Below are positions 4,739 through 18,090 of a stretch of 64,000 nucleotides of DNA, piece by piece. A model generated the notes under the pieces. The model saw nothing but the letters and a program-made list of their open reading frames with translations. It did not search any database and was not told where the DNA came from. The first letter of the stretch is position 1. Each line of letters opens with the position of its first letter. A program made the translations under genes and the position numbers. Source of the DNA: Candidatus Avoscillospira stercorigallinarum (GTDB taxonomy: Bacteria > Bacillota > Clostridia > Oscillospirales > Oscillospiraceae); contig DVFN01000015.1 of the NCBI GenBank assembly GCA_018713205.1, positions 23,553-87,552 on the forward strand. Direction: 5' to 3'.

Positions 4739-4883
4739 GAAGTAACACCTCCAGAATAGATTGCGTCTTTATTCTATCATGTTTTCCCGAAAATGCAAAT
4801 GGAAATATGCGAGGAGGCCGGGGGGCTGGTATATTTTTCTCGGGCAGGGGAAGACTACCAGGAAGGGAGAGGACGGTGAAGTC

Positions 4884-7211
4884 ATGGATTTGAGCGCAGA
4901 GCTGACGAAGCTGCTGACGACGGCGCGTCGGGAGGCGGTGCTGCTGGGCCACAGCATGGTGGGCAGCGAGCATTTGCTGCTGGCGCTGATGCAGCGGCGG
5001 GGGACCGAGGCGGCCTGGGTGCTGGAGCAGAGCGGGTGGGACCCGGAGGCGCTGCGGCAAATTCTCCGGGCCCGGGGCCGGGGCACGCCGGGGCTGCCCA
5101 TGGTCCAGGGCTTTTCGGACCACGCCCTGGGCCTGCTGGCCGGGGCGGCGCTGGAGGCCCGGCGGCTGGCGGCGGCGGAGGTGTGCCCGGAGCACTTGCT
5201 GCTGGCCATCACGCGGCTGGAGGATTCCACGGCGGCCCAGCTGCTTTTGCGGCACGGCACCAGTCTGGACTGTGTGTTCACCGATCTCTATGAGGACCTC
5301 CAGGCCGGGGTACAGCACCGGCCCGAGGCGGAAAGGGGCGTCAATATGCGTCTGTTGGAACAATTCTGCGTGGATATGGTGGAGAAGGCGGCGGATGCCG
5401 ACCCGGTGGTGGGCCGGGACCGGGAGATTGACACGGTCATTGCCATTCTCTGCCGGAAGAATAAAAACAACCCGGCCCTGATCGGGGAGCCGGGGGTGGG
5501 GAAGACGGCCATCGCCGAGGGACTGGCCCAGCGGATGCTCCAGGGCCTGGTGCCGGAGCGGCTGAAGAACAAGCGGCTGTTTTCGCTGAACATGGCTTCC
5601 GTGCTGGCCGGGACCAAGTATCGCGGCGAGTTCGAGGAGCGGGTCCGGGATATCCTGTCGGAGATTCACCGCGCCGGCAATGTGATCTTGTTTGTGGACG
5701 AGATGCACACCCTGGTGGGCGCGGGCGCGGCCGAGGGAGCCATTGACGCGGCCAATCTGCTGAAGCCGGCCTTGGGCCGGGGCGAGGTGCAGATCCTCGG
5801 AGCCACGACCCTGGAGGAGTACCGCCAGCACATCGAAAAGGACGCGGCCCTGGAGCGGCGGTTCCGGCCGGTGAAGGTGGAGGAGCCGGACCGGGAGACG
5901 GCCCTCAGGATGCTGGAGGCCTTGCAGCCGGGGCTGGAGCGGCACCATCGCATCCGAATCAGCCGCGAGGCGTTGGAGGCGGCGGTGGATCTGAGCCGCC
6001 GGTATCTGCCGGCCCACTTTCTGCCGGACAAGGCCGTGGACGTGCTGGACGAGGCGGCGGCCCGGACCGGCGGCGAGCTCTTGGCGGATCGGACCGAGAC
6101 GGCCCGCCAGACCCTGAACCGGGAGCTGAGCCAAGCCGTGCGGGAGAACCGGTTCGAGCAGGCGGCGTCCATTCGCGATAAGCTCCAGCAGCTGCTGCGG
6201 CAGCAGCGGGGCATTCTGGCCCAGCGGGTGGTGGACCGGGAGGACGTGGCCAAGGCCGTCTCCCTGCGGACCGGCATACCGGTGGGAAAGGTGACCCAGT
6301 CGGACCGGGCGCGGCTCCTGGGACTCCGGGCGGCCCTTTCGGGGCAGGTCCTGGGGCAGGAGAAGGCCGTGGCGGCCGTGGCCGAGGCGGTATGCCGGGG
6401 CAGAATGGGGCTGGCCGACGAGAAGCGGCCCGTGGCGTCGCTGCTGTTTCTGGGCCCCACCGGCGTGGGCAAGACGGCCCTGTGCAAGGCCCTGGCCGAC
6501 TGCGTCTACGGCAGCCGGGACGCTCTGGTCCGGCTGGATATGTCGGAATATATGGAGCAGCACGCCGTATCCCGGCTGCTGGGCGCGCCGCCCGGCTACG
6601 TGGGCCACGGCGAGGGCGGTGAGCTCACCGAGCCGGTCCGGCGGCGGCCCTATGCGGTGGTGCTGCTGGACGAGCTGGAGAAGGCCCACCGGGATGTGAC
6701 CTCCATCCTCCTCCAGGTGCTGGAGGACGGCATTCTGACCGATTCCATGGGCCGACACGTGAACTTCCGCAATACCATTGTGGTCATGACCTCCAACCTG
6801 GGCAGCGGCCGGAACAATCTGGACCAGGTGGGCTTCCTGGGCGGAAAGCTGGGGGACCCGGCAGGGAAGGCCCTGCGGGAGTATTTCTCACCGGAGTTCT
6901 TGGGCCGTCTGGACGCGGTGGTGACCTTTTCCGCCCTGTCCCAGGAGACGCTGGCGCAGATTGCCGCCCTGGAGCTCCGGGAGACGGTACAGCGGGCGGC
7001 CCGGGCCGGGGCGGATCTCCAGCTGTCGCCGGAGACGGCGGCCTGCCTGGCGGCCCAGTGCGCCAAAGGCCCCGGCGGCGCCCGGGACATCCGCCGGGCC
7101 ATCCGCGCCGACATCGAGGCCCCCGTGGCCGACCGCCTGCTCCGGGCCGAGGAGCGGCTTTGTCTCCGCACCGCCGTAGAAGACGGCCGGGTGGTGGTAA
7201 AGGAAACGTGA
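4884..7211 (+). CDS. clpC: ATP-dependent Clp protease ATP-binding subunit ClpC-type (class I AAA+)
   Basis: Start trimmed to ATG 4884 ([11 protein letters not shown]) after the GGAAGGGAGAGGA RBS. Two Clp_N repeats, Walker A GEPGVGKT and GPTGVGKT, a UVR-like middle segment, and a ClpP-docking VGF loop. Confidence 0.9.
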
Positions 7212-7216
7212 AGGCA

Positions 7217-7522
7217 GCAGGGGCCGATGCCCACATCGGCCCGCCAGCCTCCGCGCGCAAGGCAGTCCGCCGGCCGCAGGGACCCCGTTTTTGCCGTAGG
7301 GCGGCATGCCCACATGCCGCCAGAACCGGGGAGGATGGGTTGCGGCCTGGGTGGCTGCTGCGGCTGGGCACGGGCGGGCATCAAGCCCGCCCCTACGGAC
7401 CCGCCTGGAAATCCGCCGTAGGGGCGGCCTGTATGGCCGCCCGAAACCAGGTACCGGTGTCCGAGGCAGTAGACCGCACCGACCACCGTCCCTGCCGTAG
7501 GGGCGGATTTTATATCCGCCCG
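7217..7522. repeat. REP/BIME-like cluster B (5 units)
   Basis: Units 7217-7243(+, head GCAGGGG), 7296-7321(+), 7371-7396(-), 7418-7443(+), 7497-7522(+) GTAGGGGCGGATtttatATCCGCCCG. Confidence 0.9.
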
Positions 7523-7538
7523 GAAGCAGGTGTGTCTT

Positions 7539-8954
7539 CTACGGCTGGTTCACCACGCCGACGAAGAGGGGCAGGCCCTGGGTGTCGGTCAGGGCGAAGA
7601 GGAAGGGGCGGTCCAGGGTGAAGTCGATCTCGTCCTCCGGCGGGGCTCCGGCTCCGGACATGGCCATTTCAGTATAGGCCGCGGCGGTGACGCCCTCTTC
7701 GTCGATGGCCACCCGGACGCCGTGCTTGGCCTCGGAGAGCCAGAGGTCCTCAGCACTGCCGGAGAGCATCGGAGAGAAGTCGGCCCGGTCGGGGTCAAAG
7801 ACGTCGGTGACGCCCAATGCCTGCAAGCCCTCGCCCAGGTCGATTTGGGACGAAATATCGAACTTCGGCAATGCCAGATTGACGATCAGATATTTCTCCT
7901 GGTCCCATCCCCCGCCGGAGAGCAGGAAGTCCATGGCCTCAGGATCGGCCAGCAGATCCTCGGGGCTGACGCCCTCGTCGGGCAGGAGGAACCACATGGT
8001 CCCGCCGCCGTTGGCGAGAGACAGACCGGCAACGCCGAACTGGTCACCCCAGTAGTAGTGGCCGTCGAAGCTCGTGTGCATAAAGTCCTTGGTCACGTCG
8101 CCAACCGGGCTGTGGAAGGTCTGGGGCGCGGTGTTTTCCTCGGAGAACCGGCTGCTCCACTTGGCCTGGTAGTAGACCGTGGTCACCAGGGCCAGAATGG
8201 CGTCGGGGGACAGCTTCAGGTTCTGGACCTGGTCGGCCAGCAAACCGCCGGTCTGATCGTTGATCCAGCTTTGCAGCGCCTCGGTCATGGCCGGGGAATC
8301 CAGATCTCCCCGGAAGCTGGAGGCGTAGTAGTTCTGCGCCAGGGTGTTCAGCGTATTCTGATTGAAAGGCACGCCGTCCTCCAGCCAGAGGGACCCGGCC
8401 AAAATGCTGTTGGTGGCGCCGTCGTTGGAGTAGTGGTCGTTCCAGAGATCATTGGCCTGGGCTCGCAGGGTCTCGATGGAGCCATGGCCCAGCAGGGTGA
8501 GAATCTGGTCCCGGCTCTCGCCGCCGGTGAGCTCGGCCAGCATGGCCAGAGCCATATAGACGTTCAGCGGCGAATAGGCCCGGTTTTCCGTACCGGCGCC
8601 GCGGAGAAAGGTGGGAATGCTGGCGCGGAAGTAGCCCTCCAGGCCGTCGGCATAGGCCGGGTCCCGGTCCTGGGCGCGCTTGTCCGTCCGCCAGGCGTCG
8701 TATTGGGCTTCAAAGTCGGCGTCCATTTCATTGGGATAGGGAGCCATTTCCGGGTAGCTGGCCTCGGCGACGGCGTAGGCGGTGGTGGAGGCCGGACCGC
8801 CGGGGAAGAAGGTGCCCACGGCAATGGCCGCGGCCAAGACCGCCGCGGCGGCAGCCGCCCACCAGGGCCGCGAGGACCGGCGCTTTTTGTCGCTGCGCAG
8901 CAGCACGTCGTCGTCCACCTGGCCGATACTTTCATAGAGATCCTGTTCATTCAT
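7539..8954 (-). CDS. membrane-anchored serpin (serine protease inhibitor family)
   Basis: 471 aa. Short N-terminal cytoplasmic segment plus TM (WWAAAAAAVLAAAIAVGTFF), then a serpin body. Hinge/RCL is EEGVTAAAYTEMAMSGAG (about 7638-7700) and the C-terminal signature is DRPFLFALTDTQGLPLFVGVVNQP. AAGGAGG RBS. The ATG overlaps the sigma gene stop. Confidence 0.85.
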   Translation of the reverse strand: MNEQDLYESIGQVDDDVLLRSDKKRRSSRPWWAAAAAAVLAAAIAVGTFFPGGPASTTAYAVAEASYPEMAPYPNEMDADFEAQYDAWRTDKRAQDRDPAYADGLEGYFRASIPTFLRGAGTENRAYSPLNVYMALAMLAELTGGESRDQILTLLGHGSIETLRAQANDLWNDHYSNDGATNSILAGSLWLEDGVPFNQNTLNTLAQNYYASSFRGDLDSPAMTEALQSWINDQTGGLLADQVQNLKLSPDAILALVTTVYYQAKWSSRFSEENTAPQTFHSPVGDVTKDFMHTSFDGHYYWGDQFGVAGLSLANGGGTMWFLLPDEGVSPEDLLADPEAMDFLLSGGGWDQEKYLIVNLALPKFDISSQIDLGEGLQALGVTDVFDPDRADFSPMLSGSAEDLWLSEAKHGVRVAIDEEGVTAAAYTEMAMSGAGAPPEDEIDFTLDRPFLFALTDTQGLPLFVGVVNQP

Positions 8955-9510
8955 GGAGAAATCCCTCCTTACATAAGTGTGCCCGGAGCCTCTGCCGGGT
9001 CCGGGACAGAATCACCCCGGCGTGATTTTCGGTGAGGCCGCAGTGCTTGGCCGCCGCGGCTACGGATTCGGTGTAGAAGTAGCGCCGGACGAAGAGGTCG
9101 CATTCCCGGGGCGGCAGCTGCCGGACAAATTGCCGGATGGTCTGCCCCAGCGCCGCGGCGATGGCCTCGCCCTCGGGGTCGCCGTCCCGGGCTACGCAGT
9201 CCTTGAGCTCGTCCAGTACCGCGTCGATTTCCCCGCCACCCCGCTTCTGGGCCGACTGACGCCGCCAGCGGTTGAAGGAGATCCGCCGGGTCAGCTTGGC
9301 CAGGAAGGGCTTGAGCACCACCGGTTTTTGGGGCGGGATGGCGTTCCAGGCCCCCAGCCATGTATCATTGACGCACTCCTCGGCGTCCTCGGGGCTGCCA
9401 AGGATGTTCCGGGCCACGGCGCGGCAGTAGGGCGCGTATTTTTCGTCGGTCCGGGCGATGGCGTCCGGATTGCGTGCCCAATAGAGAGCCACGATTTTCT
9501 CGTCTTCCAC
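8947..9510 (-). CDS. RNA polymerase sigma-70 family factor (group 4 / ECF-like)
   Basis: Start set at GTG 9510 (VEDEKIVALYWARN), 6 nt after a GAGAGGAGGA RBS. Region 2 (DAEECVNDTWLGAW) and region 4 HTH (ESVAAAAKHCGLTENHAGVILSRTRQRLR). 8-nt overlap with the serpin gene. Confidence 0.85.
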   Translation of the reverse strand: MEDEKIVALYWARNPDAIARTDEKYAPYCRAVARNILGSPEDAEECVNDTWLGAWNAIPPQKPVVLKPFLAKLTRRISFNRWRRQSAQKRGGGEIDAVLDELKDCVARDGDPEGEAIAAALGQTIRQFVRQLPPRECDLFVRRYFYTESVAAAAKHCGLTENHAGVILSRTRQRLRAHLCKEGFLHE

Positions 9511-9552
9511 GGTCCGTCCTCCTCTCTGAAAGGTCCTTTCACTTACTATATC

Positions 9553-9585
9553 AAAAAAACCCGGGGCTGTCTTACAGCCGCCGGG
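9553..9585 (-). terminator. intrinsic terminator-like hairpin upstream of sigma gene
   Basis: Minus strand reads CCCGGCGGCTGT-aag-ACAGCCCCGGG followed by TTTTTTT. It overlaps a possible AAGACA-17-TATAGT promoter (-10 at 9545-9550). Confidence 0.5.
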
Positions 9586-9630
9586 AAATTTTCTTGCAGA
9601 TATTTTCCACTGCTCGGTCGCATCAGGCCT

Positions 9631-9876
9631 CAGCGAGGGAAGTGAAAGTCTGGGGACGCGCCGTCTCATACGACGCGTCCCTGCAGACTGTCAAAAACCT
9701 CGCTGAAGATGCCTGTAACAGAGCAGCGGGGGAAGTGTGAAGGGGCCCAAGGGCCCCTTCGCGTTCAATCAACACGTATTTTCAAACTTTTTCAAAAGTT
9801 TGAAAATACGCACAGCGTGGCGAAAAGACTTTTTCGACACGCTGTGGAGACGCGCCGTATGATGTGGCGCGTCCCC
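9631..9876. repeat. palindrome-saturated intergenic element (5 consecutive hairpins, inverted 30-nt ends)
   Basis: Hairpins at 9631-9705 (nested CAGCGAGG/AGTCTG/GGGACGCG arms), 9739-9760, 9775-9810 (13-bp perfect stem), 9811-9846 and 9849-9873. 9652-9681 and the reverse complement of 9847-9876 match at 24/30 positions. Confidence 0.7.
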
Positions 9877-9893
9877 GTGCAAAAGAGAAAGTA

Positions 9894-12800
9894 TTATTCG
9901 GAAAGGGGAGAGCGGTAGAGGAAGGTGACGATTTCCGCTCGGGAGCAGGTCTTGTCAGGGCTGAAGGTGCTGCTGCCGGTGCCCTGGGTGACGTTCTCGG
10001 CCACGGCCCAGAGGACGGCGTCCTTGTAGTAGGCGTTGGCGGGGACATCGGTGAAGGGCACGGTCCCGGAGGAAGCCTTGCCGCTGGCGGCGCGGTAGAG
10101 GAAGGTCACGGCCTCAGCCCGGGAGCAGGTCTTGTCAGGGTTGAAGGTGGTGGCGCTGGTGCCCTGGGTGATCCCCGCTTCCACGGCCCAGAGCACGGCG
10201 TCATAGTAGTAGGCGCTGGAGCTCACGTCGGTGAAGGGGTTTGCCCTGGACTTGGCGGCGGGCTTTCCGGCAGCGCGCCAGAGGAAGGTGACGATCTCGG
10301 CACGGGTGCAGGCCTTGTCGGGGCTGAAGGTATTGCTGCCGGTGCCGTCGGTGACGCCGTTCTCCACGGCCCAGGTCACGGCGTCATAGTAGTAGCTGCG
10401 CTTGGAGACGTCGCGGAAAGTCTGGGTGGGTTGGCTGGGGGTGGTCGCGGACGTGCCGCCGGAGGGCTTGTGCGGCGTGTCGGGCTCGTCGGGATCAACG
10501 GTGGGGAGGTTCAGATTGAGTCCCACGCCCTCCTGGATGGGCAGCACATGGAGCCACTCGCTCTTGGCGGTGTAGGTTTTGCCGTCCTGCTCGTAGGTGG
10601 CCACGATTTGCCACCAGCCTTCCGGCACGTTCCAGGCGTAATTGCCCAGGGCGTCGGAAACCTGGGGGTTGACCTGGCCGTAGTTGGTCATATCAAAGAC
10701 ATAGGCGTTGGCCGCGTCAGCGGTCTCCCCGTTGCCGCCGTAGTACAGCGTGACGGTCGCGCCGGGAACGGGGTTATCCAGCGTGCCGGAGTAGACTGTG
10801 CCGGAGGGGTCCATGATGGGGAGGAAGGTCTGGACGCCGGTGTACTGCGTCTCGCCCGGGAATTCGCCTCCGACGGGGCCAGCTGCCCAGCCGATCCGGT
10901 AGCTCACCGGGGGATTGGAGGTATCACGGTCGGCGAGGTCCAGTTCGCCCTTCCACTGGTTGCGGTCGCCGGGGCCAGGCTCCTCCAGCGGCACTTCTTT
11001 TGTCGTGCCGTCCAGCAGGGTAACATAGATCGTGGCCCACCGAATTTCCCAGCCGTCGGGGACGTCAAATTCCACGGCGTATTCGAACAAGGGCTCGTCG
11101 GGCCAGTAGGTGTAGTAGCTCTGAAGGACCTTGTTGTTGACGTAGTCCACGTCGATGGTCACCGGCACTTTGATGCCGTGGCTGCTGTGGACGATGTTGG
11201 TGATGGAGAGAATAGTCACGCTGACGGAATCGGGATCATAGGTGACGGTCAGCGTCGCGGCGGGCTCGCTGCTGCGGCCCTTGGTGAAATACACCTTGAT
11301 GGTAAAGGTTTCTTTTTGCAGCAGGCTGGCGACCGGCAGGTTCACGGGGATCTTAAAGGTACCCTGAGAACTGACCACGCCCTCATAGATCTTGGAAATC
11401 GTGTTGGCGCTGCTGACATCCAGAGTGGTCTTGTCGCCGGGGGTGCCGTAGCCGCTGACATAGATCAGAGGCACTTTGGTGACGGAAGGCGCGGTGGCCT
11501 GGAAGCCGGAGGCGTTGACCGGCAGAGAGGTCTGATAGGTGCCGGTGCTGGAGGCAGCGGTGGCGGTAATGGTATAATCGCCTTCCTCCAGCGGCTTGAC
11601 GCTGAACCGAATCACCGCCGCGCCGCGCACAGGGATGTCATTCCGCTGAGAGACGCTCACGCCATTGACGGAGAGACTGCCCTCAATCAGCTCCAATCCA
11701 GCGGGAAGCTCGATGGATACGGTGCCGTCGATCACAACGGTATACTTGATGACCACCGGCGCGCCCACGGTCGCCTGGCCGCTGGTGATCTCCATGGCGC
11801 CGGTATAGCCGCTGGGCTCCTGCCCCTCCTCGGAGCTGATGGTGACATCGGTGCAGAGCTTGCCGTCCTCGGTGCTGTCCTCGGTATAGTAGTACCAGTG
11901 ATAGGTGTATTCTGTATCGTTGACAGTCTCCCGCTCTACGACATAAACAAATTGAAGCTCATTGCCAGTGACGTTCGACACGGCGTGGAGCCCTTCGGCA
12001 AGGGTCATCCGATTGACGCCGTCTGTCGTGTTAAAACCGTCCGTACCTTGCCACAATACGGCATTTTGGCCCGTGATATGGATGACGCCGCCCCTGAAGT
12101 CCACACTCGCACCGTCGGAGACGAGACCATAGGTGTTGAAATTCGAGGAACCCAGGAAACTGTGGGTACCGCCGGTAATGGTGAGAGAACCGGTCTCACC
12201 GTCATTGGACGCGGCTAATACTGCAACAGATGGATAGTCAGCACCGTCTCCATTGGTTGTGGCATTCAGGCTGCCGCCGCGGAGCACCGCGCTGCCGTCC
12301 ACGACCATCATGCCGCGAGCGTCGCCATAGGTGTTGATCGTTCCGTCCAGCATGGAAAAGCTGCCGCTGCAATACATACCGACATAATCGGAGGTGACAT
12401 CCAGCGTACCGCCGCTGACGGACATGGAACCCTGACTGCTTTCAAAGATGCCCATGGCCTCGATATAATTACCGGGTTCGAGGACCGAACCGCTGGCATC
12501 CAGCTTCACAGTGCCGCCGGTCTGGTTCATGGAGCCTTGATCCGCAATTTCCAGAGCAATGGCCTTGTGAGCTTCGACTGTCAGACTGCCGCCATAGATA
12601 TTCAGAACGCCGGAAATGGAGTTGAGGCTCCACCAATTGTACGGGGATGCAACATTTTTCACCTGTATTTTGGCGTTGTTACTGATCGTGGCTTCACTAT
12701 TCATATTGACGCTAAGACCCTTAACAGCTTGGAGCACGGTGGTGCCGCCGGTGAAGGTGGCAGTATTGGGCGTGTTGGAGGACATCGCGTCATTGACAGA

Positions 12801-14906
12801 GATTGCGTAGCTGTCAACAGAGTTGTCGTTGGCAGTAATCGTCAGCGTGCCGCCGGACTGAGTCAGGGCGGATGTGCCGAGCACGACGCCGGTTTCGTCC
12901 ATTTCGGTGGCAAGACCGATGCCGTTGCCGTTGGGGAAGTCGATGGTCACATTGCCGCCGGACATGGTCAGCGAACTGCCGCCGCAGATGATGCCGTCGG
13001 TCCAGGCATAGTCGCTGTAATAGGGATTCCCGTCGTCATCATAGCTTGTGCTGTAGTCCACAGGGGCGGTCACGTCAATTTCCAGATCGCCGCCGGAAAT
13101 GGCCATGCTGCTCTGATTCAGATTGATGCCCTGCCAGTAGCTTTCCAGGCTGACATCGGCTGTACCGGCGATCTCCAGGCGGCAGTCCTTTCGGACCGCC
13201 ATACCGGTCATGGCCTTCATCGTGGCGGAACCGCCGCGGAAGACGGCGGAGACAGCGGAGCCGTCTTCCGAATATGTCTCGAGGCCGACGTTTTCAATCT
13301 CGCCGGTGGTGGTGACGGTCAGCGTACCGCCGGACTGGGTGAAGGAGCAGGCACCGGAGGTATTGTCTGTCCAGTTGTTCATGCTGATGCCTGCGCCGTC
13401 TTCATAGTCCAGCGTGACCGTGCCGCCCTGGAGCGAGAACGTGCTTCGGTCCAGGGCAACGGTCCGGACCCGGGCGTAAGTATCCTCTGTCTCGCCGTTC
13501 TCGTCCCAGATCGGACTGCGGTCCGTGGTTTCGTCGGCGTCCATGTCAAGATCCAGCGTACCGCCGGTCATGGTCAGGCTGGAGTCGTTCAAATATACGG
13601 CATGATTATGGGCGGTGATATGGACATCGGCGTTGGAGGCAATGGACACCTGGGAGCCCTGATTGGCCAAGATGCCCGTCTGTCCGGTGAGGCGGGTGGT
13701 ACCGCCGCGGAAGGTCAAGGTGTTCTGGGCATTACGGCCATCTGTGATGATGGCGTTTGTAATTTTGGCGCCTTCGCGGGGCGTTACCTTGAGGCTGCCG
13801 CCGGATTGCGTAAAGGACGCAGTGACCGGCTCGTCGCTGTTGCCGAGCTCAATGCCGTTTCCGTTGCCATAGTGAATGTTAACATTGCCGTCTGTCAGGT
13901 TTACGACGCCGTCGTGGAGATAAATGCCATGGGTCCAGACATCGGCTTCGTCATACGAATTGCCTGCCTCGTCTACTTTCTCTGTGGTGGTAGTAGGCGC
14001 GGTCAAGTCAATATCCAGGCTGCCGCCGGAGATATTGAGTGTGGCGTCCATCAGGACAAGGCCCTCGGAATAGGCGGTGATGTTGACATCTGCGTTGTCT
14101 TGGATGGTCATGGAGTTGCGTGAAACGGATTCTTCGCTGTGCCAAAACTCAATGCTTCCATCGCCGGTAAAAGCAGCATCACCGGAAATGACAACAGTGC
14201 CGGAACAGATGCTCAGAGATTTTTCGCCAGCGGCAAATAATTGGGCGTTGCCGGTGACCGTGAGGCCCACACCGCTTCCGTCCGAGCCGATGGCGCTGGT
14301 CATAGTTTGAATGGGATTGCCGTTTTCATCCTCCCAGCCCATGTAGGTACCGTTGATTTGCGCCGTGACGACGGCCTGGTCCTGGATGGTCAGCGAACTG
14401 CCTTCGCACAGCAGGATGGCGTTGCCGTCGTTGGAGGCTTGGGTCGTAGCGGTCAGAGAACCGCTGCCGGTCATGGTGACGTTGACACCGCCGCCGAAGC
14501 TGATGCAGTGGTAGGTGCCGTTGGGATCAATTTCTGCATCTTGATATGCTGTAAAGATGTTTTGCCCCTCCAGTACGATCTTCAGATCCGAGGTGGGCAG
14601 CCAGTAGTCGTCAGGCCCCAACTGAAACAGTGTATGAAAGGTTTCCAAATTCGCGCCGTTGAAGGTCAGCGTATTGGAGTCCAAGTCATAGCTGACGCCG
14701 TCGGGAAGTGCAGTCTTTGATTCATCCTCACAGAAAATGACTTGCTCTCCCTGCTCGTTCAGTTCGACAGAGTACATCAAATCATCGAACAAAAAACTTG
14801 CTTGTTGCGGGGGCTGGACCTCGTCCGCAGTTCCCGCCGCCAGCGCCAGGGGCGCCAGAACCAGCAGCAGGACCAGGGTCAGGACCAGCAGAATGCTTCG
14901 TTTCAT
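9894..14906 (-). CDS. giant cell-surface protein with C-terminal triple SLH anchor
   Basis: Start trimmed to ATG 14906 (MKRSILLVLTLVLLLVLAPLALAAG signal peptide) after AGGAGG. About 156-aa tandem repeats (motif FTQSGG(S/T)L.VT) in about 12620-14510. Cna-B/carboxypeptidase-regulatory-like domain. Three SLH repeats at 9912-10418. Confidence 0.85.
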   Translation of the reverse strand: MKRSILLVLTLVLLLVLAPLALAAGTADEVQPPQQASFLFDDLMYSVELNEQGEQVIFCEDESKTALPDGVSYDLDSNTLTFNGANLETFHTLFQLGPDDYWLPTSDLKIVLEGQNIFTAYQDAEIDPNGTYHCISFGGGVNVTMTGSGSLTATTQASNDGNAILLCEGSSLTIQDQAVVTAQINGTYMGWEDENGNPIQTMTSAIGSDGSGVGLTVTGNAQLFAAGEKSLSICSGTVVISGDAAFTGDGSIEFWHSEESVSRNSMTIQDNADVNITAYSEGLVLMDATLNISGGSLDIDLTAPTTTTEKVDEAGNSYDEADVWTHGIYLHDGVVNLTDGNVNIHYGNGNGIELGNSDEPVTASFTQSGGSLKVTPREGAKITNAIITDGRNAQNTLTFRGGTTRLTGQTGILANQGSQVSIASNADVHITAHNHAVYLNDSSLTMTGGTLDLDMDADETTDRSPIWDENGETEDTYARVRTVALDRSTFSLQGGTVTLDYEDGAGISMNNWTDNTSGACSFTQSGGTLTVTTTGEIENVGLETYSEDGSAVSAVFRGGSATMKAMTGMAVRKDCRLEIAGTADVSLESYWQGINLNQSSMAISGGDLEIDVTAPVDYSTSYDDDGNPYYSDYAWTDGIICGGSSLTMSGGNVTIDFPNGNGIGLATEMDETGVVLGTSALTQSGGTLTITANDNSVDSYAISVNDAMSSNTPNTATFTGGTTVLQAVKGLSVNMNSEATISNNAKIQVKNVASPYNWWSLNSISGVLNIYGGSLTVEAHKAIALEIADQGSMNQTGGTVKLDASGSVLEPGNYIEAMGIFESSQGSMSVSGGTLDVTSDYVGMYCSGSFSMLDGTINTYGDARGMMVVDGSAVLRGGSLNATTNGDGADYPSVAVLAASNDGETGSLTITGGTHSFLGSSNFNTYGLVSDGASVDFRGGVIHITGQNAVLWQGTDGFNTTDGVNRMTLAEGLHAVSNVTGNELQFVYVVERETVNDTEYTYHWYYYTEDSTEDGKLCTDVTISSEEGQEPSGYTGAMEITSGQATVGAPVVIKYTVVIDGTVSIELPAGLELIEGSLSVNGVSVSQRNDIPVRGAAVIRFSVKPLEEGDYTITATAASSTGTYQTSLPVNASGFQATAPSVTKVPLIYVSGYGTPGDKTTLDVSSANTISKIYEGVVSSQGTFKIPVNLPVASLLQKETFTIKVYFTKGRSSEPAATLTVTYDPDSVSVTILSITNIVHSSHGIKVPVTIDVDYVNNKVLQSYYTYWPDEPLFEYAVEFDVPDGWEIRWATIYVTLLDGTTKEVPLEEPGPGDRNQWKGELDLADRDTSNPPVSYRIGWAAGPVGGEFPGETQYTGVQTFLPIMDPSGTVYSGTLDNPVPGATVTLYYGGNGETADAANAYVFDMTNYGQVNPQVSDALGNYAWNVPEGWWQIVATYEQDGKTYTAKSEWLHVLPIQEGVGLNLNLPTVDPDEPDTPHKPSGGTSATTPSQPTQTFRDVSKRSYYYDAVTWAVENGVTDGTGSNTFSPDKACTRAEIVTFLWRAAGKPAAKSRANPFTDVSSSAYYYDAVLWAVEAGITQGTSATTFNPDKTCSRAEAVTFLYRAASGKASSGTVPFTDVPANAYYKDAVLWAVAENVTQGTGSSTFSPDKTCSRAEIVTFLYRSPLSE

Positions 14907-15094
14907 ATGCTTCCTCCTCATTCGTATTGGAATGGGCGAAACCGTGCCGCCCAATTCCGCGCATAAAAATACCCTATGCACCATTATAGCGGCACAGAGG
15001 GTATAATTGGTATGCAGGCTGCATACTTTTGCAAAAAAACATATTTGTGCCAGCCCTACGGCCAATCGCGGACCGGCGCGACGTGGCCGGATGC

Positions 15095-15202
15095 CTGAGA
15101 GGGAAGGCTCCCCTTGAGGGGAGCTGTCAGCCGCAGGCTGACTGAGAGGTGTTGCCGCACCGAAAGTTTGCCGCAGGGCATCGGCGAGCGCAGAGGGCGC
15201 TC
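15095..15202. repeat. double-hairpin element flanked by CTGAGAGG direct repeats
   Basis: GCTCCCC-ttga-GGGGAGC (15107-15124) and GTCAGCC-gca-GGCTGAC (15126-15142), bracketed by CTGAGAGG at 15095-15102 and 15142-15149. A third hairpin GAGCGC-agagg-GCGCTC lies at 15186-15202. Confidence 0.6.
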
Positions 15203-15236
15203 CACGAGGCGACACACTGTTTTGCACACGGGATCT

Positions 15237-15598: not shown

Positions 15599-17494
15599 CT
15601 ACACGACCAGCTGGAATGGGGGCTCGCCCAGAGCCTGTCGGATGGCGTCAGCCTGGTCGGCGGTGCACTGGACCTGGACCAGCTGGCCGCAGTCGTCCAG
15701 AGGCGTCCAGTCCGAGACGGTCAGACCGGCGGCCAGCAGAGTGGAGAGCTTCGGCATCTCAGTCAGGGGCGACAGATCCAAGGGTGGGGCGCACAGAATT
15801 TGCAGGGTCTGCACCTGGGCGAGATCGCCGGCCCCATCCAGAGATGCCAAGGTATCCTGGTGCAGGAAGAGGTACGTCAGGTGCGGCAGCTGCGCCAGAG
15901 GGGTCAGATCGGCCATGCCCCGGACGTGCCACAGGAAGAGCTCCCGGATTTCCGACAGGGACAGAATGGTCTCCAGCTGCGGGGCGGTCACAGGCCGCAG
16001 GAACAGCGTCCGCAGCTTGGGAAGCGCAGAGAGCGTAGAAATATCCTCCAGCTTCTCTATGTCGTGAAGCTGCAGCAGCGTCAGATTGTCCAGGCCGGAT
16101 AAGGACTGCAGATCGGTCAGGGCCGTGGCCCCGGCATTGAGACCGGAGAGCTTGGCGCACTGGGCCAGCGGGGAGAAATCGGAAACGGGGTTGCCGGACA
16201 CCGTCAGCTCCTGGAGTTCTCCGCAGGCGGCCAGAGGGGACAGGTCGGTGATGGCATTGTTGGCCAGGCACAGCTGCACCAGGCCGGTACACTGGGCCAG
16301 GGGCGTGAGATCCGATATGTTCTGAGAGGCCAGAGCCAGCACCCGCAGATTGGGCATCTGGGCCAGATCCTCCAGCGTGTCCACGGCGCCTGCTTCGATA
16401 ACCTGGACGCCGTCCAGCGCCACATAGGAGCCGGTGGCGGTGAGCCGCTCCCAGCGGTCGAAGGACTGACCGCCGCAGAGCAGCAGCGTTTCAACCTGCG
16501 CCAGGTCGCCCCGGGTCACCTGGTCGGGCTCCTGGCCCAGCTGCCGGCAGACCTCGGCCTCGATGGTGGAGGAGGCGAAGACATAGGGCTCGGCGTCGCG
16601 GATTGCGGCGGCAGCGGCTTCCTGCCGGACCTGATGCGCCGTCACGGCGTCGGCGATGACAGGCGGGAGGAAGATGGCGGCCAGTACCGCCGCCGTCAAT
16701 ACGGCGGTCAGAGGGCCGAAGCGATGGGCCCAGTAGGCCAGCGGCGCTTGCCGCAGCGCCAGCCCCACGGCGGCGGCGTCCGGATAGCGGTCCTCGGGCG
16801 CGAAGCGGGTGCAGCGCTGAATCACCGGCTGGAGCACCGGCGGCACCGTGCCCTGGTCCAGGAAGGGCGTCCCGGCGGCCAGCTCGTGGAGCAGCACGCC
16901 CAGGGCGTAGACGTCGGACCGGGCGTCGGTCTGCCGGAAGCCGAACTGCTCCGGCGGGGCCGAGGCCGGCGTCCCCAGCACCTGGGTATCCCGGCAGGCC
17001 CCGGCCTCAAACCGGCGGGAGATGCCGAAGTCGATCAGGTACAGCTGCCCCTCGGGGGTGCGGATGATGTTTTCCAGCTTGATGTCCCGGTGGATGACCG
17101 GCGGGTCCTGCCGGTGGAGCCGCCGGAGAATGGCGCAGATTTCCAGACCGATGTCCCGAACCTCGCGGGCCGGCAGCGGTCCGCGCTTCTGCGCATAGTC
17201 CAGCAGCGTCTCGCCGGGCACATAGACCCGCAGCAAATAGGTCCAGCCATTTTCCTGAAAGACCTGGAGGCTTTCGGGAATGCCGGGTCCGGCCAGCTGC
17301 CGGAGCAGCTGGTGCTCATCCTGCAGTTGACTTTGCTTGTCGGAAGCACGCTTGCAGATGATCTGAAGCCCCGTTCTCCGGTGACGCAGCAGCAGCGTCT
17401 GCCGCCAGCCCCTGTCCTGCAGCAGCGCCAGAGGCTGATATTCGTCGAGAAGCCGGGGCGGAAGATAGCTTGCCAGTTCCATGGCGCGCCTCAC
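15599..17494 (-). CDS. Ser/Thr protein kinase with extracellular leucine-rich-repeat domain
   Basis: Hanks kinase motifs (HRDIKLENII, DFGISR, GTPASAPPEQ), one TM (LTAVLTAAVLAAIFLPPVI), and internalin-like 22-aa LRRs (L..L..L.L..N.I.DLSPL). Start is either GTG 17494 (GTGA overlap with the upstream gene) or ATG 17482. Confidence 0.85.
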   Translation of the reverse strand: MRRAMELASYLPPRLLDEYQPLALLQDRGWRQTLLLRHRRTGLQIICKRASDKQSQLQDEHQLLRQLAGPGIPESLQVFQENGWTYLLRVYVPGETLLDYAQKRGPLPAREVRDIGLEICAILRRLHRQDPPVIHRDIKLENIIRTPEGQLYLIDFGISRRFEAGACRDTQVLGTPASAPPEQFGFRQTDARSDVYALGVLLHELAAGTPFLDQGTVPPVLQPVIQRCTRFAPEDRYPDAAAVGLALRQAPLAYWAHRFGPLTAVLTAAVLAAIFLPPVIADAVTAHQVRQEAAAAAIRDAEPYVFASSTIEAEVCRQLGQEPDQVTRGDLAQVETLLLCGGQSFDRWERLTATGSYVALDGVQVIEAGAVDTLEDLAQMPNLRVLALASQNISDLTPLAQCTGLVQLCLANNAITDLSPLAACGELQELTVSGNPVSDFSPLAQCAKLSGLNAGATALTDLQSLSGLDNLTLLQLHDIEKLEDISTLSALPKLRTLFLRPVTAPQLETILSLSEIRELFLWHVRGMADLTPLAQLPHLTYLFLHQDTLASLDGAGDLAQVQTLQILCAPPLDLSPLTEMPKLSTLLAAGLTVSDWTPLDDCGQLVQVQCTADQADAIRQALGEPPFQLVV

Positions 17495-17943
17495 AGCAGG
17501 GCCAGCTCGCCGCAGCTGGTCAGCAGTTCATCGGTATCGTAGAGGTGCAATCGGTGGCTGAGACAGTAAATCATCACGGCGTCCCGTCGGATTCGGGGAT
17601 AGAGCGCGCCCCGCTGCGCCGCACGCAGCAGCCGCTGCGTTTCCTCCAGCGTCAGCTCCAGCACCACGGACAGCCGCAGGATGATATCGCGGCTGGGGGC
17701 GCGGAGTCCGCTGCAAAGCTGGTAGGTAAAGGAACGGCTGAGCATGGCCAGCGAGCTGAGCTGATGGGGCGTCAGACCCCGCGCCTCCAGCATCTGAGCC
17801 AGCAGGTCGGAAAAGCCGGGGGCATTCAAATTATCCTGGATCATATTCAGCGTGGGCTGCAGTGTCTCGGCCTGCTGCAGAATGGTCTCCAGCTCTTGGG
17901 TCAGCAGTCGGGACGCCGGACCGCTTTGAACCGTTTCGTTCAC
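17491..17943 (-). CDS. XRE-like helix-turn-helix protein co-transcribed with kinase
   Basis: Start set at GTG 17943 after a GAGGAGG RBS. HTH segment GLTPHQLSSLAMLSRSFTYQLCSGLRAPSRDIILRLS. Its stop overlaps the kinase start. Confidence 0.6.
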   Translation of the reverse strand: MNETVQSGPASRLLTQELETILQQAETLQPTLNMIQDNLNAPGFSDLLAQMLEARGLTPHQLSSLAMLSRSFTYQLCSGLRAPSRDIILRLSVVLELTLEETQRLLRAAQRGALYPRIRRDAVMIYCLSHRLHLYDTDELLTSCGELALL

Positions 17944-18064
17944 AGGGATTACCTCCTCGGAGCGCCGCCTCCCTGGGGGAAGGCAAAACGAATTGGATTG
18001 CATTGGGAATAGTATAACAGCCGCGTTCAGGCATTGCAAGAAGGCGCGTATCATTCCGGCCATC

Positions 18065-18090
18065 AAAAAACCACCCCGAAGGGTGGTTTT
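18065..18090 (-). terminator. intrinsic terminator after ACT-domain gene
   Basis: AAAACCACCC-cgaa-GGGTGGTTTT. On the minus strand it is followed by TTTTTT, 12 nt after the stop at 18102. Confidence 0.75.

What the first reader, a model, noticed from the sequence alone, without database searches (positions are those of the whole stretch)
7539..9510. Sigma factor translationally coupled to a membrane-anchored serpin occupying the anti-sigma position
A group-4/ECF-like sigma-70 gene (8947-9510) overlaps by 8 nt the start of a 471-aa protein. An AAGGAGG RBS for that protein lies inside the sigma gene. The N-terminus of the protein (MNEQDLYESIGQVDDDVLLRSDKKRRSS + one TM) occupies the position and topology normally taken by a single-pass anti-sigma factor. 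Its entire extracytoplasmic part is a full-length serpin. The hinge EEGVTAAAYT has the small-residue P14-P9 pattern of inhibitory serpins. Counting from the hinge places P1 near Ala/Met in ...EMAMSGAG..., which suggests elastase-like targets. This P1 assignment is inference. Secreted bacterial serpins are known from gut Bifidobacterium and Clostridia. A serpin tethered to the membrane and genetically wired to a sigma factor suggests a protease-sensing switch. Covalent capture of, or RCL cleavage by, an external protease could release the sigma factor. The neighbouring giant SLH surface protein lies on the same strand immediately upstream.
Basis: partly seen in the sequence, partly recalled or inferred. 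Interest (0 to 1): 0.75.

Follow-up and report, generated by a model that had tools for sequence, protein, structure and literature searches.

The report
Serpin fused to an anti-sigma-like anchor
A gut Clostridia bacterium encodes a stress-type sigma factor translationally coupled to a membrane-anchored protease inhibitor (serpin) whose short cytoplasmic tail is the conserved partner module of that sigma family, so this is probably a circuit that links protease attack at the cell surface to gene expression, although that link is untested.

Summary
An ECF-type sigma gene (8947-9510, minus strand) overlaps by 8 nt a 471-aa protein (7539-8954). That protein has a 23-aa acidic N-terminal peptide, a basic stretch, one Ala-rich TM helix and a full-length serpin with an inhibitory-type hinge. 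The arrangement is not a one-off. In 81 of 84 assessable sigma homolog loci, a gene overlapping the sigma stop encodes the same N-terminal peptide and TM module. Ectodomains differ: 19 of 84 are serpins and most others have no Pfam domain. The peptide co-varies with the sigma even when ectodomains are unrelated. A serpin homolog with a lipoprotein signal instead of the module has no sigma upstream. A conserved ECF-type promoter (TGTAAGA-N15/16-CGTC-like) precedes these operons. About 6,200 representative clusters carry the module. No held paper or curated model describes it. The serpin models as a native, stressed-state fold closest to tengpin, with an invariant hinge and a variable reactive loop. 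The best reading is a sigma/anti-sigma pair whose sensor ectodomain is an inhibitory serpin, probably a protease-responsive, self-replenishing shield. Sigma binding and protease triggering remain inferences. It is a new variant of a known kind.

The parts
9552..9596 (-). Intrinsic terminator hairpin with a U7 tract. It insulates the operon from the upstream SLH gene, and its loop and stem contain the -35 box.
   Evidence: minimum free energy -24.2 kcal/mol, z = -5.5, 0 of 200 shuffles as stable. One search lists a terminator-like site here. The same arrangement is seen in L007.
9532..9576 (-). ECF-type promoter of the operon: -35 TGTAAGA (9576-9570), a 16-nt spacer, a -10-like TGAT (9553-9550), and the conserved downstream element GTGAAAGGACC (9542-9532).
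   Evidence: Searches show the family consensus TGTAAGA/TGTAACC/TGCAACC-N15-(C/T)GT(C/G)T-ATATAGGTGAAAGG. One search finds it in 39 of 72 unique upstream regions, against 1.5 in shuffles. The window's -10 element deviates and is shifted by 1 nt.
8947..9510 (-). ECF-type sigma-70 family sigma factor of 187 aa, with sigma2 and sigma4 domains only. Start codon GTG, RBS GGAGG at 9522-9518.
   Evidence: Sigma70_r2, r4_2; TIGR02937 at 65.6 bits against a 42.9 cutoff; the closest solved structure is B. subtilis SigW at 1.5e-10; annotated HIQ68907.1.
8947..8970 (-). Translational coupling junction: the serpin RBS AAGGAGG (8970-8964) lies inside the sigma gene, and the 8-nt overlap ATGAATGA spans 8954-8947.
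   Evidence: sequence; overlaps of 4 or 8 nt in nearly all homologous loci.
8886..8954 (-). Residues 1-23: conserved acidic N-terminal peptide (MNEQDLYESIGQVDDDVLLRSDK), the candidate sigma-binding element.
   Evidence: positions 6, 7, 10, 13, 17 and 18 are hydrophobic in 82-100% of 76 partners, and position 11 is Gly in 80%; the peptide co-varies with the sigma; about 6,194 representative clusters carry the module.
8799..8885 (-). Residues 24-52: basic stretch (KRRSSRP), the near-invariant Trp32 (residue 31 is Trp or Arg), and an Ala-rich single TM helix (A37 and A38 near-invariant), ending in P-G-G-P.
   Evidence: W32 in 118 of 121 homologs, A37 in 121 of 121. (A37 and A38 at 90% or more across diverse partners). 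(55 of 56 partners have AA at the start of the TM helix).
8715..8798 (-). Residues 53-80: a short stalk, then the conserved juxtamembrane extension (A59-Y-A-V-A-E-A-S-Y-P-E-M-A-P-Y-P) docked on the serpin body. It is analogous to the tengpin N-terminal clamp.
   Evidence: pLDDT about 89, beta-strand at 59-63. Y67, P68, M70, Y73 and P74 are invariant or near-invariant; the extension is also present in the lipoprotein-type homolog L003. PMC1905895 describes the tengpin clamp.
7542..8714 (-). Residues 81-471: serpin domain, modelled in the native (stressed) state.
   Evidence: PF00079, 3.3e-63. (pLDDT 88-97). (Foldseek top hit is native tengpin 2pee_A, TM 0.85). (tengpin 8.6e-36).
7638..7700 (-). 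Residues 419-439: hinge (P17 E419 to P8 T428, EEGVTAAAYT) and reactive centre loop (P7-P4', EMAMSG-A435(P1)-G436(P1')-APP).
   Evidence: the hinge is the most conserved 10-mer of the domain, and RCL variability is at the 93rd percentile; residues 425-435 have low pLDDT and are exposed; ungapped alignment to the tengpin RCL ...DITAAGIP.
7486..7506 (.). Hairpin between the convergent serpin and Clp-like genes, the probable end of the operon.
   Evidence: terminator-like site scored on the + strand. No further gene lies on the minus strand before the convergent ORF 4761-7211.

Best explanation
This is a two-gene, autoregulated ECF-type sigma/anti-sigma operon in which the anti-sigma is a single-pass membrane protein whose ectodomain is an inhibitory-type serpin.

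Shown:
- The sigma has only sigma2 and sigma4 domains.
- It is translationally coupled to the partner gene.
- The partner's roughly 23-aa acidic N-terminal peptide, basic stretch, Trp and Ala-rich TM helix form a module that accompanies this sigma family almost without exception, while the ectodomain is exchangeable.
- A conserved ECF-type promoter precedes these operons.
- The ectodomain is a complete serpin modelled in the native state, with an invariant inhibitory-type hinge and a variable reactive loop.

Inferred:
- At rest, the N-terminal peptide holds the sigma at the membrane.
- An extracytoplasmic serine protease, probably elastase-like (P1 Ala, Ser or Gly, as in tengpin), attacks the reactive loop.
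- The resulting stressed-to-relaxed transition, covalent complex, or degradation of the ectodomain exposes the juxtamembrane region to site-1 cleavage.
- A site-2 protease then cuts the Ala-rich TM helix and the sigma is released.
- The sigma re-transcribes its own operon, replacing the consumed suicide inhibitor and resetting the switch. The sensor is thus also the effector.
For: - Domain content and overlap.
- Adjacency: 5 of 6 genome loci have the sigma upstream. The one serpin homolog without a sigma has a lipoprotein signal in place of the module.
- Family-wide pattern: 81 of 84 sigma-homolog loci have a partner gene starting between -23 and +1 nt from the sigma stop, carrying the same N-terminal motif and a TM helix.
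- Ectodomains: 19 of 84 are serpins, and 36 of 52 non-redundant complete partners have no Pfam domain.
- Co-variation: peptide identity tracks sigma identity even among pairs with non-homologous ectodomains (rho 0.24; 0 of 2000 Mantel permutations reach it).
- Ectodomain exchange: the serpin trait is scattered on the sigma tree, with at least 9 changes over 56 tips.
- Promoter: an ECF-type promoter is present in 39 of 72 upstream regions, against 1.5 expected. Its geometry, TGTAAG/TGTAAC-N16-CGTC, resembles the B. subtilis sigmaX/M/W promoters (own knowledge).
- Insulation: a terminator separates the operon from the upstream gene.
- Serpin features: the hinge is the most conserved segment and the RCL is at the 93rd percentile of variability. 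The AF2 model is in the native state with an exposed RCL and an ordered juxtamembrane clamp. The best structural match is native tengpin, which inhibits leukocyte elastase and needs its N-terminal clamp to stay native (PMC1905895). The RCL aligns with tengpin's without gaps.
- Paralogs: L007 has one sigma followed by two module-serpins with different RCLs, and L015 adds an ordinary secreted serpin to the operon.
- Precedents: RsiV is an anti-sigma that directly binds a host enzyme and is then degraded by signal peptidase and RasP (PMC9044953). [quoted passage not shown]
Against: - There is no direct evidence that the peptide binds the sigma.
- The peptide is shorter than any described anti-sigma domain. 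It shows no similarity to class I, II or III domains, to Pfam, or to any PDB chain. AF2 models it with low confidence when alone.
- The window's own -10 element (TGAT) departs from the CGTC consensus, and the region can also be read as a sigma-A-like promoter.
- RCL cleavage removes only about 36 C-terminal residues. Coupling to intramembrane proteolysis therefore needs an extra, hypothetical step.
- The stalk is very short: the TM helix ends near residue 52 and the ordered domain begins at 59. The serpin therefore sits under the cell wall and S-layer, where access for host proteases is uncertain.
- Most partners in the family are not serpins, so the release signal could be generic rather than protease-specific.
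- The A-x-A motif after the TM helix is part of an alternating-Ala strand and may be purely structural.
Confidence: 0.58

Rival explanations
1. Pre-sequence (cargo) model. The TM helix plus A59-Y-A61 is a long signal peptide that signal peptidase cleaves constitutively, so the serpin is released as an ordinary secreted inhibitor. The N-terminal peptide binds the sigma only until export and cleavage. Sigma activity then reports secretion flux of its cargo, not external proteases.
For: - A-[YHF]-A follows a P-G-G-P helix breaker in about 118 of 121 close homologs.
- Some non-serpin partners have a textbook TAFA|V site at the end of the TM helix.
- S2P enzymes also clear remnant signal peptides (PMC9044953).
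Against: - The hydrophobic segment is about 20 residues long, and the n-region of about 31 residues is far longer than in Sec signal peptides.
- AF2 places residues 59-63 as a strand docked on the serpin body, which would mask the site.
- Only 19 of 54 non-serpin partners have [AV]xA nearby.
- The lipoprotein-type homolog L003 and the long-stalk forms (L015, L004, L005) indicate that surface tethering is the conserved state.
- The B. longum serpin is cell-retained through an N-terminal anchor (PMC8012564).
Confidence: 0.17
2. Simple co-expression. The sigma only drives transcription of an anchored serpin. The N-terminal peptide has another role, such as membrane targeting or topology, and the sigma is controlled by something else.
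For: - No known anti-sigma domain signature is present.
- The peptide is very short.
- AF2 gives it no confident structure.
Against: - The sigma and the module are linked almost universally, with 4- or 8-nt overlaps.
- The peptide co-varies with the sigma independently of the ectodomain.
- The serpin homolog that lacks the peptide also lacks the sigma.
- A plain signal anchor does not need six invariant hydrophobic positions and a conserved acidic pattern in its cytoplasmic tail.
Confidence: 0.12
3. Bait or non-inhibitory sensor. The serpin fold serves as a conformational sensor or protease bait without productive inhibition, or it binds a non-protease ligand as hormone-binding serpins do.
For: - P9 is Tyr or Phe and P13 is Thr, which differ from the canonical ExGTEAAAA hinge (PMC8233489).
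- Inhibition has not been tested.
Against: - P15 Gly, P14 Val or Cys, and P12-P10 Ala-Ala-Ala are near-invariant and uncharged.
- The RCL length up to P1' equals that of tengpin, a proven elastase inhibitor.
- The hinge is the most conserved part of the domain.
Confidence: 0.1

Closest known systems
SigmaV-RsiV of Bacillus subtilis, Clostridioides difficile and Enterococcus faecalis (PMC9044953)
   Same: An ECF sigma is co-transcribed with a single-pass anti-sigma in a Firmicute. The ectodomain directly engages a host hydrolytic enzyme (lysozyme). Release is by regulated proteolysis at the junction of the TM helix and the ectodomain (signal peptidase at A-x-A or V-x-A), followed by RasP. The regulon then confers resistance to the enzyme that was sensed.
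   Different: RsiV has a recognisable anti-sigma domain and a DUF4179-type ectodomain, and it binds lysozyme non-covalently. Here the cytoplasmic part is a peptide of about 23 aa with no known ASD signature. The ectodomain is a mechanism-based protease inhibitor, and no regulon beyond the operon itself was found in the window. None of the proteolytic steps has been shown here.
Tengpin (Thermoanaerobacter tengcongensis serpin; PDB 2pee, 2pef; PMC1905895)
   Same: It is the closest solved structure (phmmer 8.6e-36; Foldseek TM 0.85). It is a Clostridia serpin with an N-terminal extension that docks on the body and holds the native metastable state. Its reactive loop is similar (P1 Ala, P1' Gly by alignment), and it is a proven elastase inhibitor.
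   Different: Only about 24% identical. No link between tengpin and a sigma factor has been described. Its first 31 residues were removed for the structural study, and their role is unknown.
Bifidobacterium serpins: B. longum BL0108 and the B. breve serpin with its adjacent two-component system (PMC8012564)
   Same: These are gut-commensal serpins. The B. longum protein is retained on the cell by an N-terminal membrane anchor and inhibits elastases. Transcription of the B. breve gene is induced by proteases through an adjacent dedicated regulator.
   Different: Regulation there is by a separate histidine kinase and response regulator, or by carbohydrates. The serpin is not itself part of the signalling protein, and no sigma factor is involved.
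Class II anti-sigma domains (CnrY, NepR; PMC6101532)
   Same: They are a precedent for very small anti-sigma elements: a two-helix clamp of a few dozen residues in front of a TM helix (CnrY).
   Different: No sequence similarity was detected. The peptide here is shorter still and has a conserved Gly in its middle. Its structural class is unknown.

Membership tests
Serpin superfamily (PF00079), inhibitory type | Complete serpin fold | tested here: met
   Pfam E=3.3e-63 covering profile positions 19-370 of 370. AF2 pLDDT is 88-97 over residues 59-471. Foldseek TM is 0.85 to native tengpin.
Serpin superfamily (PF00079), inhibitory type | Hinge P17-P9 of the ExGTEAAAA type, with small uncharged residues at P14, P12 and P10 and no proline | tested here: met
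   The hinge reads E419-E-G-V-T-A-A-A-Y427. G421 is present in 121 of 121 homologs, and A424, A425 and A426 in at least 113 of 121. P14 is Val or Cys. P13 Thr and P9 Tyr or Phe deviate from the consensus quoted in PMC8233489.
Serpin superfamily (PF00079), inhibitory type | Exposed reactive loop of canonical length (P17 to P1 is 17 residues) | tested here: met
   The alignment to tengpin is ungapped from the hinge through P3'. Residues 425-435 have low pLDDT and are not inserted in the model.
Serpin superfamily (PF00079), inhibitory type | Formation of a covalent SDS-stable complex with a target protease | not testable with these tools
   This requires biochemistry.
ECF (group 4) sigma-70 factors | Only sigma2 and sigma4 domains, about 180-200 aa | tested here: met
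   187 aa. Sigma70_r2 and r4_2 hits. TIGR02937 scores 65.6 bits against a 42.9 cutoff. The nearest PDB sequence is SigW.
ECF (group 4) sigma-70 factors | Co-transcribed cognate regulator immediately downstream | tested here: met
   8-nt overlap in the window. 81 of 84 homologous loci have an overlapping or abutting partner gene.
ECF (group 4) sigma-70 factors | Autoregulatory promoter with an AAC-type -35 and a CGT-type -10 | tested here: inconclusive
   The feature is clear at family level (39 of 72 regions against 1.5 expected). The window has the -35 box TGTAAGA but a deviant -10 (TGAT), and it scores poorly in a fixed-register PWM. Use of the promoter by this sigma was not tested.
Anti-sigma factors with a known anti-sigma domain (class I zf-HC2/RsiW-like, class II CnrY/NepR, class III RsbN) | Sequence or profile similarity to a described ASD | tested here: not met
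   No Pfam hit in 52 partners or in isolated N-terminal segments at E up to 10. NCBIfam gives only sub-threshold hits. A profile search of PDB sequences found nothing relevant.
Anti-sigma factors with a known anti-sigma domain (class I zf-HC2/RsiW-like, class II CnrY/NepR, class III RsbN) | Physical binding to and inhibition of the cognate sigma | not testable with these tools
Only indirect support exists, from co-variation.
RIP-controlled anti-sigma factors (RsiV, RsiW, RseA type) | Single-pass N-in topology with an extracytoplasmic sensor domain | tested here: met
   A basic stretch precedes one hydrophobic helix at residues 32-52, with the serpin on the outside. The topology is predicted, not measured.
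RIP-controlled anti-sigma factors (RsiV, RsiW, RseA type) | Site-1 cleavage site at the junction of the TM helix and the ectodomain, and S2P-compatible TM features | tested here: inconclusive
   A59-x-A61 is near-invariant in close homologs, but it is part of an alternating-Ala strand and is absent from many non-serpin partners. AA at the start of the TM helix occurs in 55 of 56 partners, which is suggestive only. The presence of an S2P in the genome was not examined.

The most novel reading that the evidence does not exclude
The serpin's stressed-to-relaxed conformational change is itself the transmembrane signal. Mechanism-based capture of an attacking protease rearranges sheet A and displaces the tengpin-like juxtamembrane clamp (residues 59-80). 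This unmasks the segment next to the membrane for site-1 and site-2 proteolysis, which frees the sigma to resynthesise the consumed inhibitor. It would be the first serpin used as a signalling receptor in bacteria. It would also be the best-annotated member of a very large family (about 6,000 clusters or more) of undescribed sigma/anti-sigma cassettes in gut Clostridia, built on a minimal peptide anti-sigma element of about 23 aa that belongs to no known ASD class.
Probability: 0.3. Interest if true: 0.85.

Novelty: new variant of a known kind. Interest (0 to 1): 0.72.

Why it matters
ECF sigma/anti-sigma pairs are a major bacterial route for sensing the outside world, yet what their sensor domains recognise is unknown for most of them. 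Here the sensor domain has a well-understood biochemistry. A serpin reacts irreversibly with a protease and undergoes a large, well-described conformational change, so the input is directly testable with purified proteases and standard serpin mutants.

The system is common in gut Oscillospiraceae and their relatives from humans, poultry and ruminants. The balance between host and microbial proteases and their inhibitors in the gut is linked to inflammatory bowel disease, and bacterial serpins are being explored as therapeutics.

The work also uncovers a very large, unannotated family of sigma-linked membrane proteins that share a minimal N-terminal module. If that module binds sigma, it would define a new and very small class of anti-sigma element.

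Tried and rejected
The complex could not be modelled.
2. A second 'sigma-like' gene at 17491-18066 turned out to be an XRE-type HTH regulator next to a Ser/Thr kinase, unrelated to this system.
3. A functional link to the giant SLH protein was rejected. A strong terminator lies between the two, and no SLH, Clp or kinase homolog occurs in any related locus.
4. A PWM scan of the 64-kb window for further promoters of this type found no convincing site. The top hit (25831-25788, score 17.5) lies in an AT-rich stretch and is below the training range of 23-41. The window's own site scores low because of a 1-nt register shift.
5. The large word-indexed protein search with the N-terminal module profile returned only fragments of 105 aa or less, so it said nothing about ectodomains. 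Those fragments were then reused for the exhaustive representative search.
6. The idea that A59-x-A61 is a signal-peptidase site-1 was examined and downgraded. The motif is part of an AYAVAEA strand, is partly kept in the lipoprotein-type homolog, and is absent from most non-serpin partners.
7. A single amphipathic helix model for the peptide is not supported statistically: 21% of shuffles reach the observed hydrophobic moment. The conserved Gly11 suggests a kinked or two-segment element instead.
8. Rfam found nothing in 7300-10000.
9. Literature searches for serpin plus anti-sigma or sigma factor found no relevant paper. The ECF re-classification paper does not mention serpins in its main text, and its supplements are not held.
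Full report
**What is in the window.**
On the minus strand, a 187-aa ORF runs from GTG at 9510 (GGAGG 7 nt upstream) to TGA at 8949-8947. It overlaps by 8 nt (ATGAATGA) a 471-aa ORF at 8954-7539, whose AAGGAGG ribosome-binding site (8970-8964) lies inside the first gene. The first protein has Sigma70_r2 and r4_2 domains. It passes NCBI's curated cutoff for TIGR02937, the sigma70-ECF model, with 65.6 bits against 42.9. Its nearest solved relative is the B. subtilis ECF sigma SigW. The second protein is a full-length serpin over residues 121-471 (PF00079, E=3.3e-63, profile positions 19-370 of 370). It is preceded by MNEQDLYESIGQVDDDVLLRSDKKRRSSRPWW and one hydrophobic helix. The exact sequences are public: they come from the chicken-gut MAG Candidatus Avoscillospira stercorigallinarum (Oscillospiraceae). 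They are annotated only as 'serpin family protein' and 'sigma-70 family RNA polymerase sigma factor'.

**Is the adjacency conserved?**
The serpin has more than 3,000 database relatives. The best 120 clusters (54-96% identity) all cover the query fully at 468-518 aa, so they include the N-terminal extension. Six loci were found in GTDB species genomes. In five of them a sigma homolog (42-47% identity) ends exactly where the serpin gene starts. In the sixth (L003), the serpin homolog begins with a lipoprotein signal peptide (…LAAAGC) instead of the N-terminal module and has no sigma upstream. The presence of the module and the presence of the sigma therefore go together.

**The module is generic; the serpin is one of its ectodomains.**
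A scan of metagenome contigs with a sigma-family alignment returned 80 loci at 43-76% identity. Pooled with the genome loci, there are 84 assessable sigma genes, and 81 are followed by a gene starting between -23 and +1 nt from the sigma stop, usually with a 4-nt (ATGA) or 8-nt overlap. The remaining three look like frameshifted copies of the same partners. The partner proteins are 150-570 aa long and share an N-terminal pattern:
- M-x-x-[ED]-x-[LIF]-[FYL]-x-x-[ILV]-G-x-[IVL]-[DN]-[ED]-x-[YLI]-[IVL]-x-[ER]-[AS];
- then a basic cluster;
- then usually W-x-[KR]-W;
- then a TM helix that starts with a near-invariant Ala-Ala (55 of 56 non-redundant partners).

Only 19 of the 84 partners are serpins. 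Of 52 non-redundant complete partners, 15 are serpins, one has a Big_14 domain and 36 have no Pfam domain. An exhaustive profile search of 1.84 billion representative proteins found 6,194 clusters with this module at E ≤ 1e-3. In all but one of the 150 best hits the match is at the extreme N-terminus. Among 57 of the longer top hits, serpin was again the only recurrent annotated domain, in 3 proteins.

**Does the peptide belong with the sigma?**
Identity in the 26-residue N-terminal peptide correlates with sigma identity even among pairs whose ectodomains are not homologous (Spearman 0.24; 0 of 2000 Mantel permutations reach this value). Several sigmas that rank among the window sigma's nearest relatives have non-serpin partners (L008 at 60%, L010 at 58%). 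Those partners have peptides 42-50% identical to the window's peptide. On a neighbour-joining tree of 56 sigmas, the serpin trait needs at least 9 changes. The evolutionary unit is thus the sigma plus the peptide and TM helix, and ectodomains have been exchanged repeatedly. This is what one expects for a sigma and its cognate anti-sigma. It is not direct evidence of binding, and shared inheritance contributes to the correlation.

The peptide matches no described anti-sigma domain:
- There is no Pfam hit in any partner.
- NCBIfam gives only sub-threshold hits, to CU044_5270 in 7 of 52 partners and to a generic 'anti-sigma factor' model in 2 of 52.
- A profile search of PDB sequences found nothing relevant.

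It is shorter than the class II two-helix clamps CnrY and NepR, the smallest described class (PMC6101532).

**Promoter and operon limits.**
Upstream regions of these sigma genes share TGTAAGA/TGTAACC/TGCAACC-N15-(C/T)GT(C/G)T followed by ATATAGGTGAAAGG, starting mostly 52-82 nt before the start codon. A strict pattern matches 39 of 72 unique upstream regions, against 1.5 in shuffles and 1.2% of control windows. The geometry, an AAC/AAG-type -35 box, about 16 nt of spacer and a CGT-type -10 box, is that of classical Bacillus ECF promoters (own knowledge). This points to autoregulation.

The window has TGTAAGA (9576-9570), a 16-nt spacer, TGAT, and the conserved GTGAAAGGACC (9542-9532). Its -10 element deviates, and the region can also be read as a weak sigma-A-type promoter. 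The -35 box sits inside a strong terminator hairpin (-24.2 kcal/mol, z = -5.5, followed by U7). That terminator insulates the operon from the upstream SLH gene, and the same arrangement occurs in L007. Downstream, the serpin gene converges on a Clp-like gene.

Only the sigma and the serpin are conserved across serpin-type loci. The SLH, Clp and kinase genes are not. No other convincing promoter of this type lies in the 64 kb. The only detectable output of the sigma here is therefore its own operon.

**The serpin.**
Across 121 homologs, the hinge D418-E-E-G-[VC]-T-A-A-A-[YF]-T428 is the most conserved 10-mer of the whole domain. The reactive loop from P7 to P2' is at the 93rd percentile of variability. 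This combination is typical of inhibitory serpins with diversifying specificity. Canonical counting gives P1 = A435 (Ala in 57, Ser in 38 and Gly in 18 of 121) and P1' = G436.

The loop aligns without gaps to that of tengpin (…DITAAGIP…), the closest solved structure (8.6e-36). Tengpin inhibits human leukocyte elastase with a stoichiometry of inhibition of 2.1 (PMC1905895). An elastase-like target is therefore reasonable but not shown.

AlphaFold2 with 78 homologs gives a confident model: pLDDT is 88-97 from residue 59 onward, and the loop at 425-435 is flexible and not inserted. The best structural match is native tengpin, with a TM score of 0.85.

The conserved juxtamembrane segment 59-80 (AYAVAEASYPEMAPYP…) is ordered at pLDDT about 89, with a β-strand at 59-63. 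It is also present in the lipoprotein-type homolog L003, so it belongs to the serpin module. In tengpin, a comparable N-terminal extension covers a hydrophobic patch and holds the metastable native state. Without it the protein becomes latent.

**How it most likely works.**
These parts are shown:
- an ECF-type sigma;
- a translationally coupled single-pass partner with a family-specific cytoplasmic peptide;
- a conserved ECF-type promoter;
- an inhibitory-type serpin outside the membrane.

The rest is inferred:
- The peptide sequesters the sigma at the membrane.
- Protease attack on the reactive loop consumes or remodels the serpin.
- The ectodomain is then removed, and a site-2 protease cuts the Ala-rich TM helix.
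- The freed sigma transcribes the operon, which replaces the suicide inhibitor and restores repression.

The closest worked example is RsiV. It binds lysozyme directly, is then cut by signal peptidase at an A-x-A or V-x-A site at the junction of the TM helix and the ectodomain, and is finally cut by RasP (PMC9044953). The near-invariant A59-x-A61 after a P-G-G-P helix breaker, docked as a strand on the native serpin, would fit a masked site-1 of this kind. However, the motif is part of an alternating-Ala strand and is absent from most non-serpin partners, so I regard this step as speculative.

Two loci support a protease-defence output. In L007, one sigma is followed by two serpins with identical peptide and TM modules but different reactive loops. 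In L015, the operon adds an ordinary signal-peptide serpin.

**Weak points.**
- Sigma binding is unproven, and the peptide is unusually small.
- Loop cleavage alone does not shorten the ectodomain.
- The short stalk places the serpin beneath the wall and S-layer, so the relevant protease could be bacterial rather than host-derived.
- Because most partners are not serpins, the release signal could be general, for example ectodomain damage.

**Rival explanations.**
- The TM helix plus A-x-A may be a long signal peptide that is cleaved constitutively, making the serpin cargo and the sigma a reporter of export.
- The sigma and the serpin may simply be co-expressed without any binding.
- The serpin may be a non-inhibitory sensor or bait.

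The lipoprotein-type and long-stalk homologs, and the cell-retained B. longum serpin (PMC8012564), favour a tethered resting state over constitutive release.

**Comparison with what is known, and novelty.**
Membrane-anchored bacterial serpins are known. The B. longum serpin is cell-retained, and a 'membrane anchored' class is predicted in PMC8233489. Protease-inducible serpin transcription through an adjacent two-component system is known in B. breve. No held paper connects serpins with sigma or anti-sigma factors. The ECF re-classification paper does not mention serpins. No curated model recognises the N-terminal module.

I classify the finding as a new variant of a known kind. It is an ECF sigma/anti-sigma system with an unprecedented sensor domain and an undescribed minimal cytoplasmic element. 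It belongs to a very large, uncharacterised family in gut Clostridia.

Noticed in passing
L007:4057-6969: In the closest related locus (sigma 76% identical), one sigma is followed by two tandem serpin genes of 482 and 478 aa. Their N-terminal peptide and basic stretch are identical and their TM helices nearly so, but their reactive loops differ (…YTVMAADGSSAPP… and …YTLMSMAGAGEPP…).
   Followed up: partly
L015:890-3914: A module-bearing serpin of 572 aa, with a D/N/S-rich stalk of about 150 aa, is followed by an ordinary signal-peptide serpin of 417 aa with a tengpin-like loop. The operon thus contains a second, conventional serpin.
   Followed up: partly
L003:3806-5248: A 47%-identical serpin homolog in Candidatus Ventrimonas carries a lipoprotein signal (…LAAAGC) instead of the sigma-linked module and has no sigma upstream. 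It keeps the YPExxPYP juxtamembrane extension.
   Followed up: yes
L006:2069-4792 and L008:452-3895: Two sigma/module-partner cassettes lie within a few kb of each other in the same contig (in L006 one has a serpin and one does not). This suggests that the cassette is multiplied within genomes.
   Followed up: no
window 9552-9596: The terminator hairpin of the upstream transcription unit contains the -35 box (TGTAAGA) of the sigma operon promoter in its loop and stem. The same overlap is seen in L007.
   Followed up: partly
window 9894-15227: A giant ORF of 1777 aa (the first start codon in frame; the real start is probably internal) encodes a surface protein with three C-terminal SLH repeats (PF00395, 1.7e-37) and a long repetitive N-terminal region with no other Pfam domain. 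It is not conserved next to sigma-serpin pairs.
   Followed up: partly
window 15599-18066: An XRE-type HTH protein (17491-18066) overlaps by 4 nt a 631-aa Ser/Thr protein kinase with leucine-rich repeats (15599-17494). This is an unusual regulator-kinase pair.
   Followed up: no
L025, L033, L043, L027, L060: Several partner genes are truncated or frameshifted copies of intact partners seen in sister contigs (for example L025 against L030, and L027 against L022). They are either assembly errors or pseudogenes.
   Followed up: no
P0375: A 681-aa predicted protein consists of 11 tandem repeats of about 56 aa, each matching the N-terminal peptide motif (…HEALLQALGEVEPEEVDEA…). It may be a spurious ORF across a DNA tandem repeat, or a genuine repeat protein.
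   Followed up: no
L005:5123-6109: A DUF4349 membrane protein (1.2e-51) lies directly downstream of the sigma-serpin pair in one Oscillospiraceae locus. It was not seen in the other loci.
   Followed up: no
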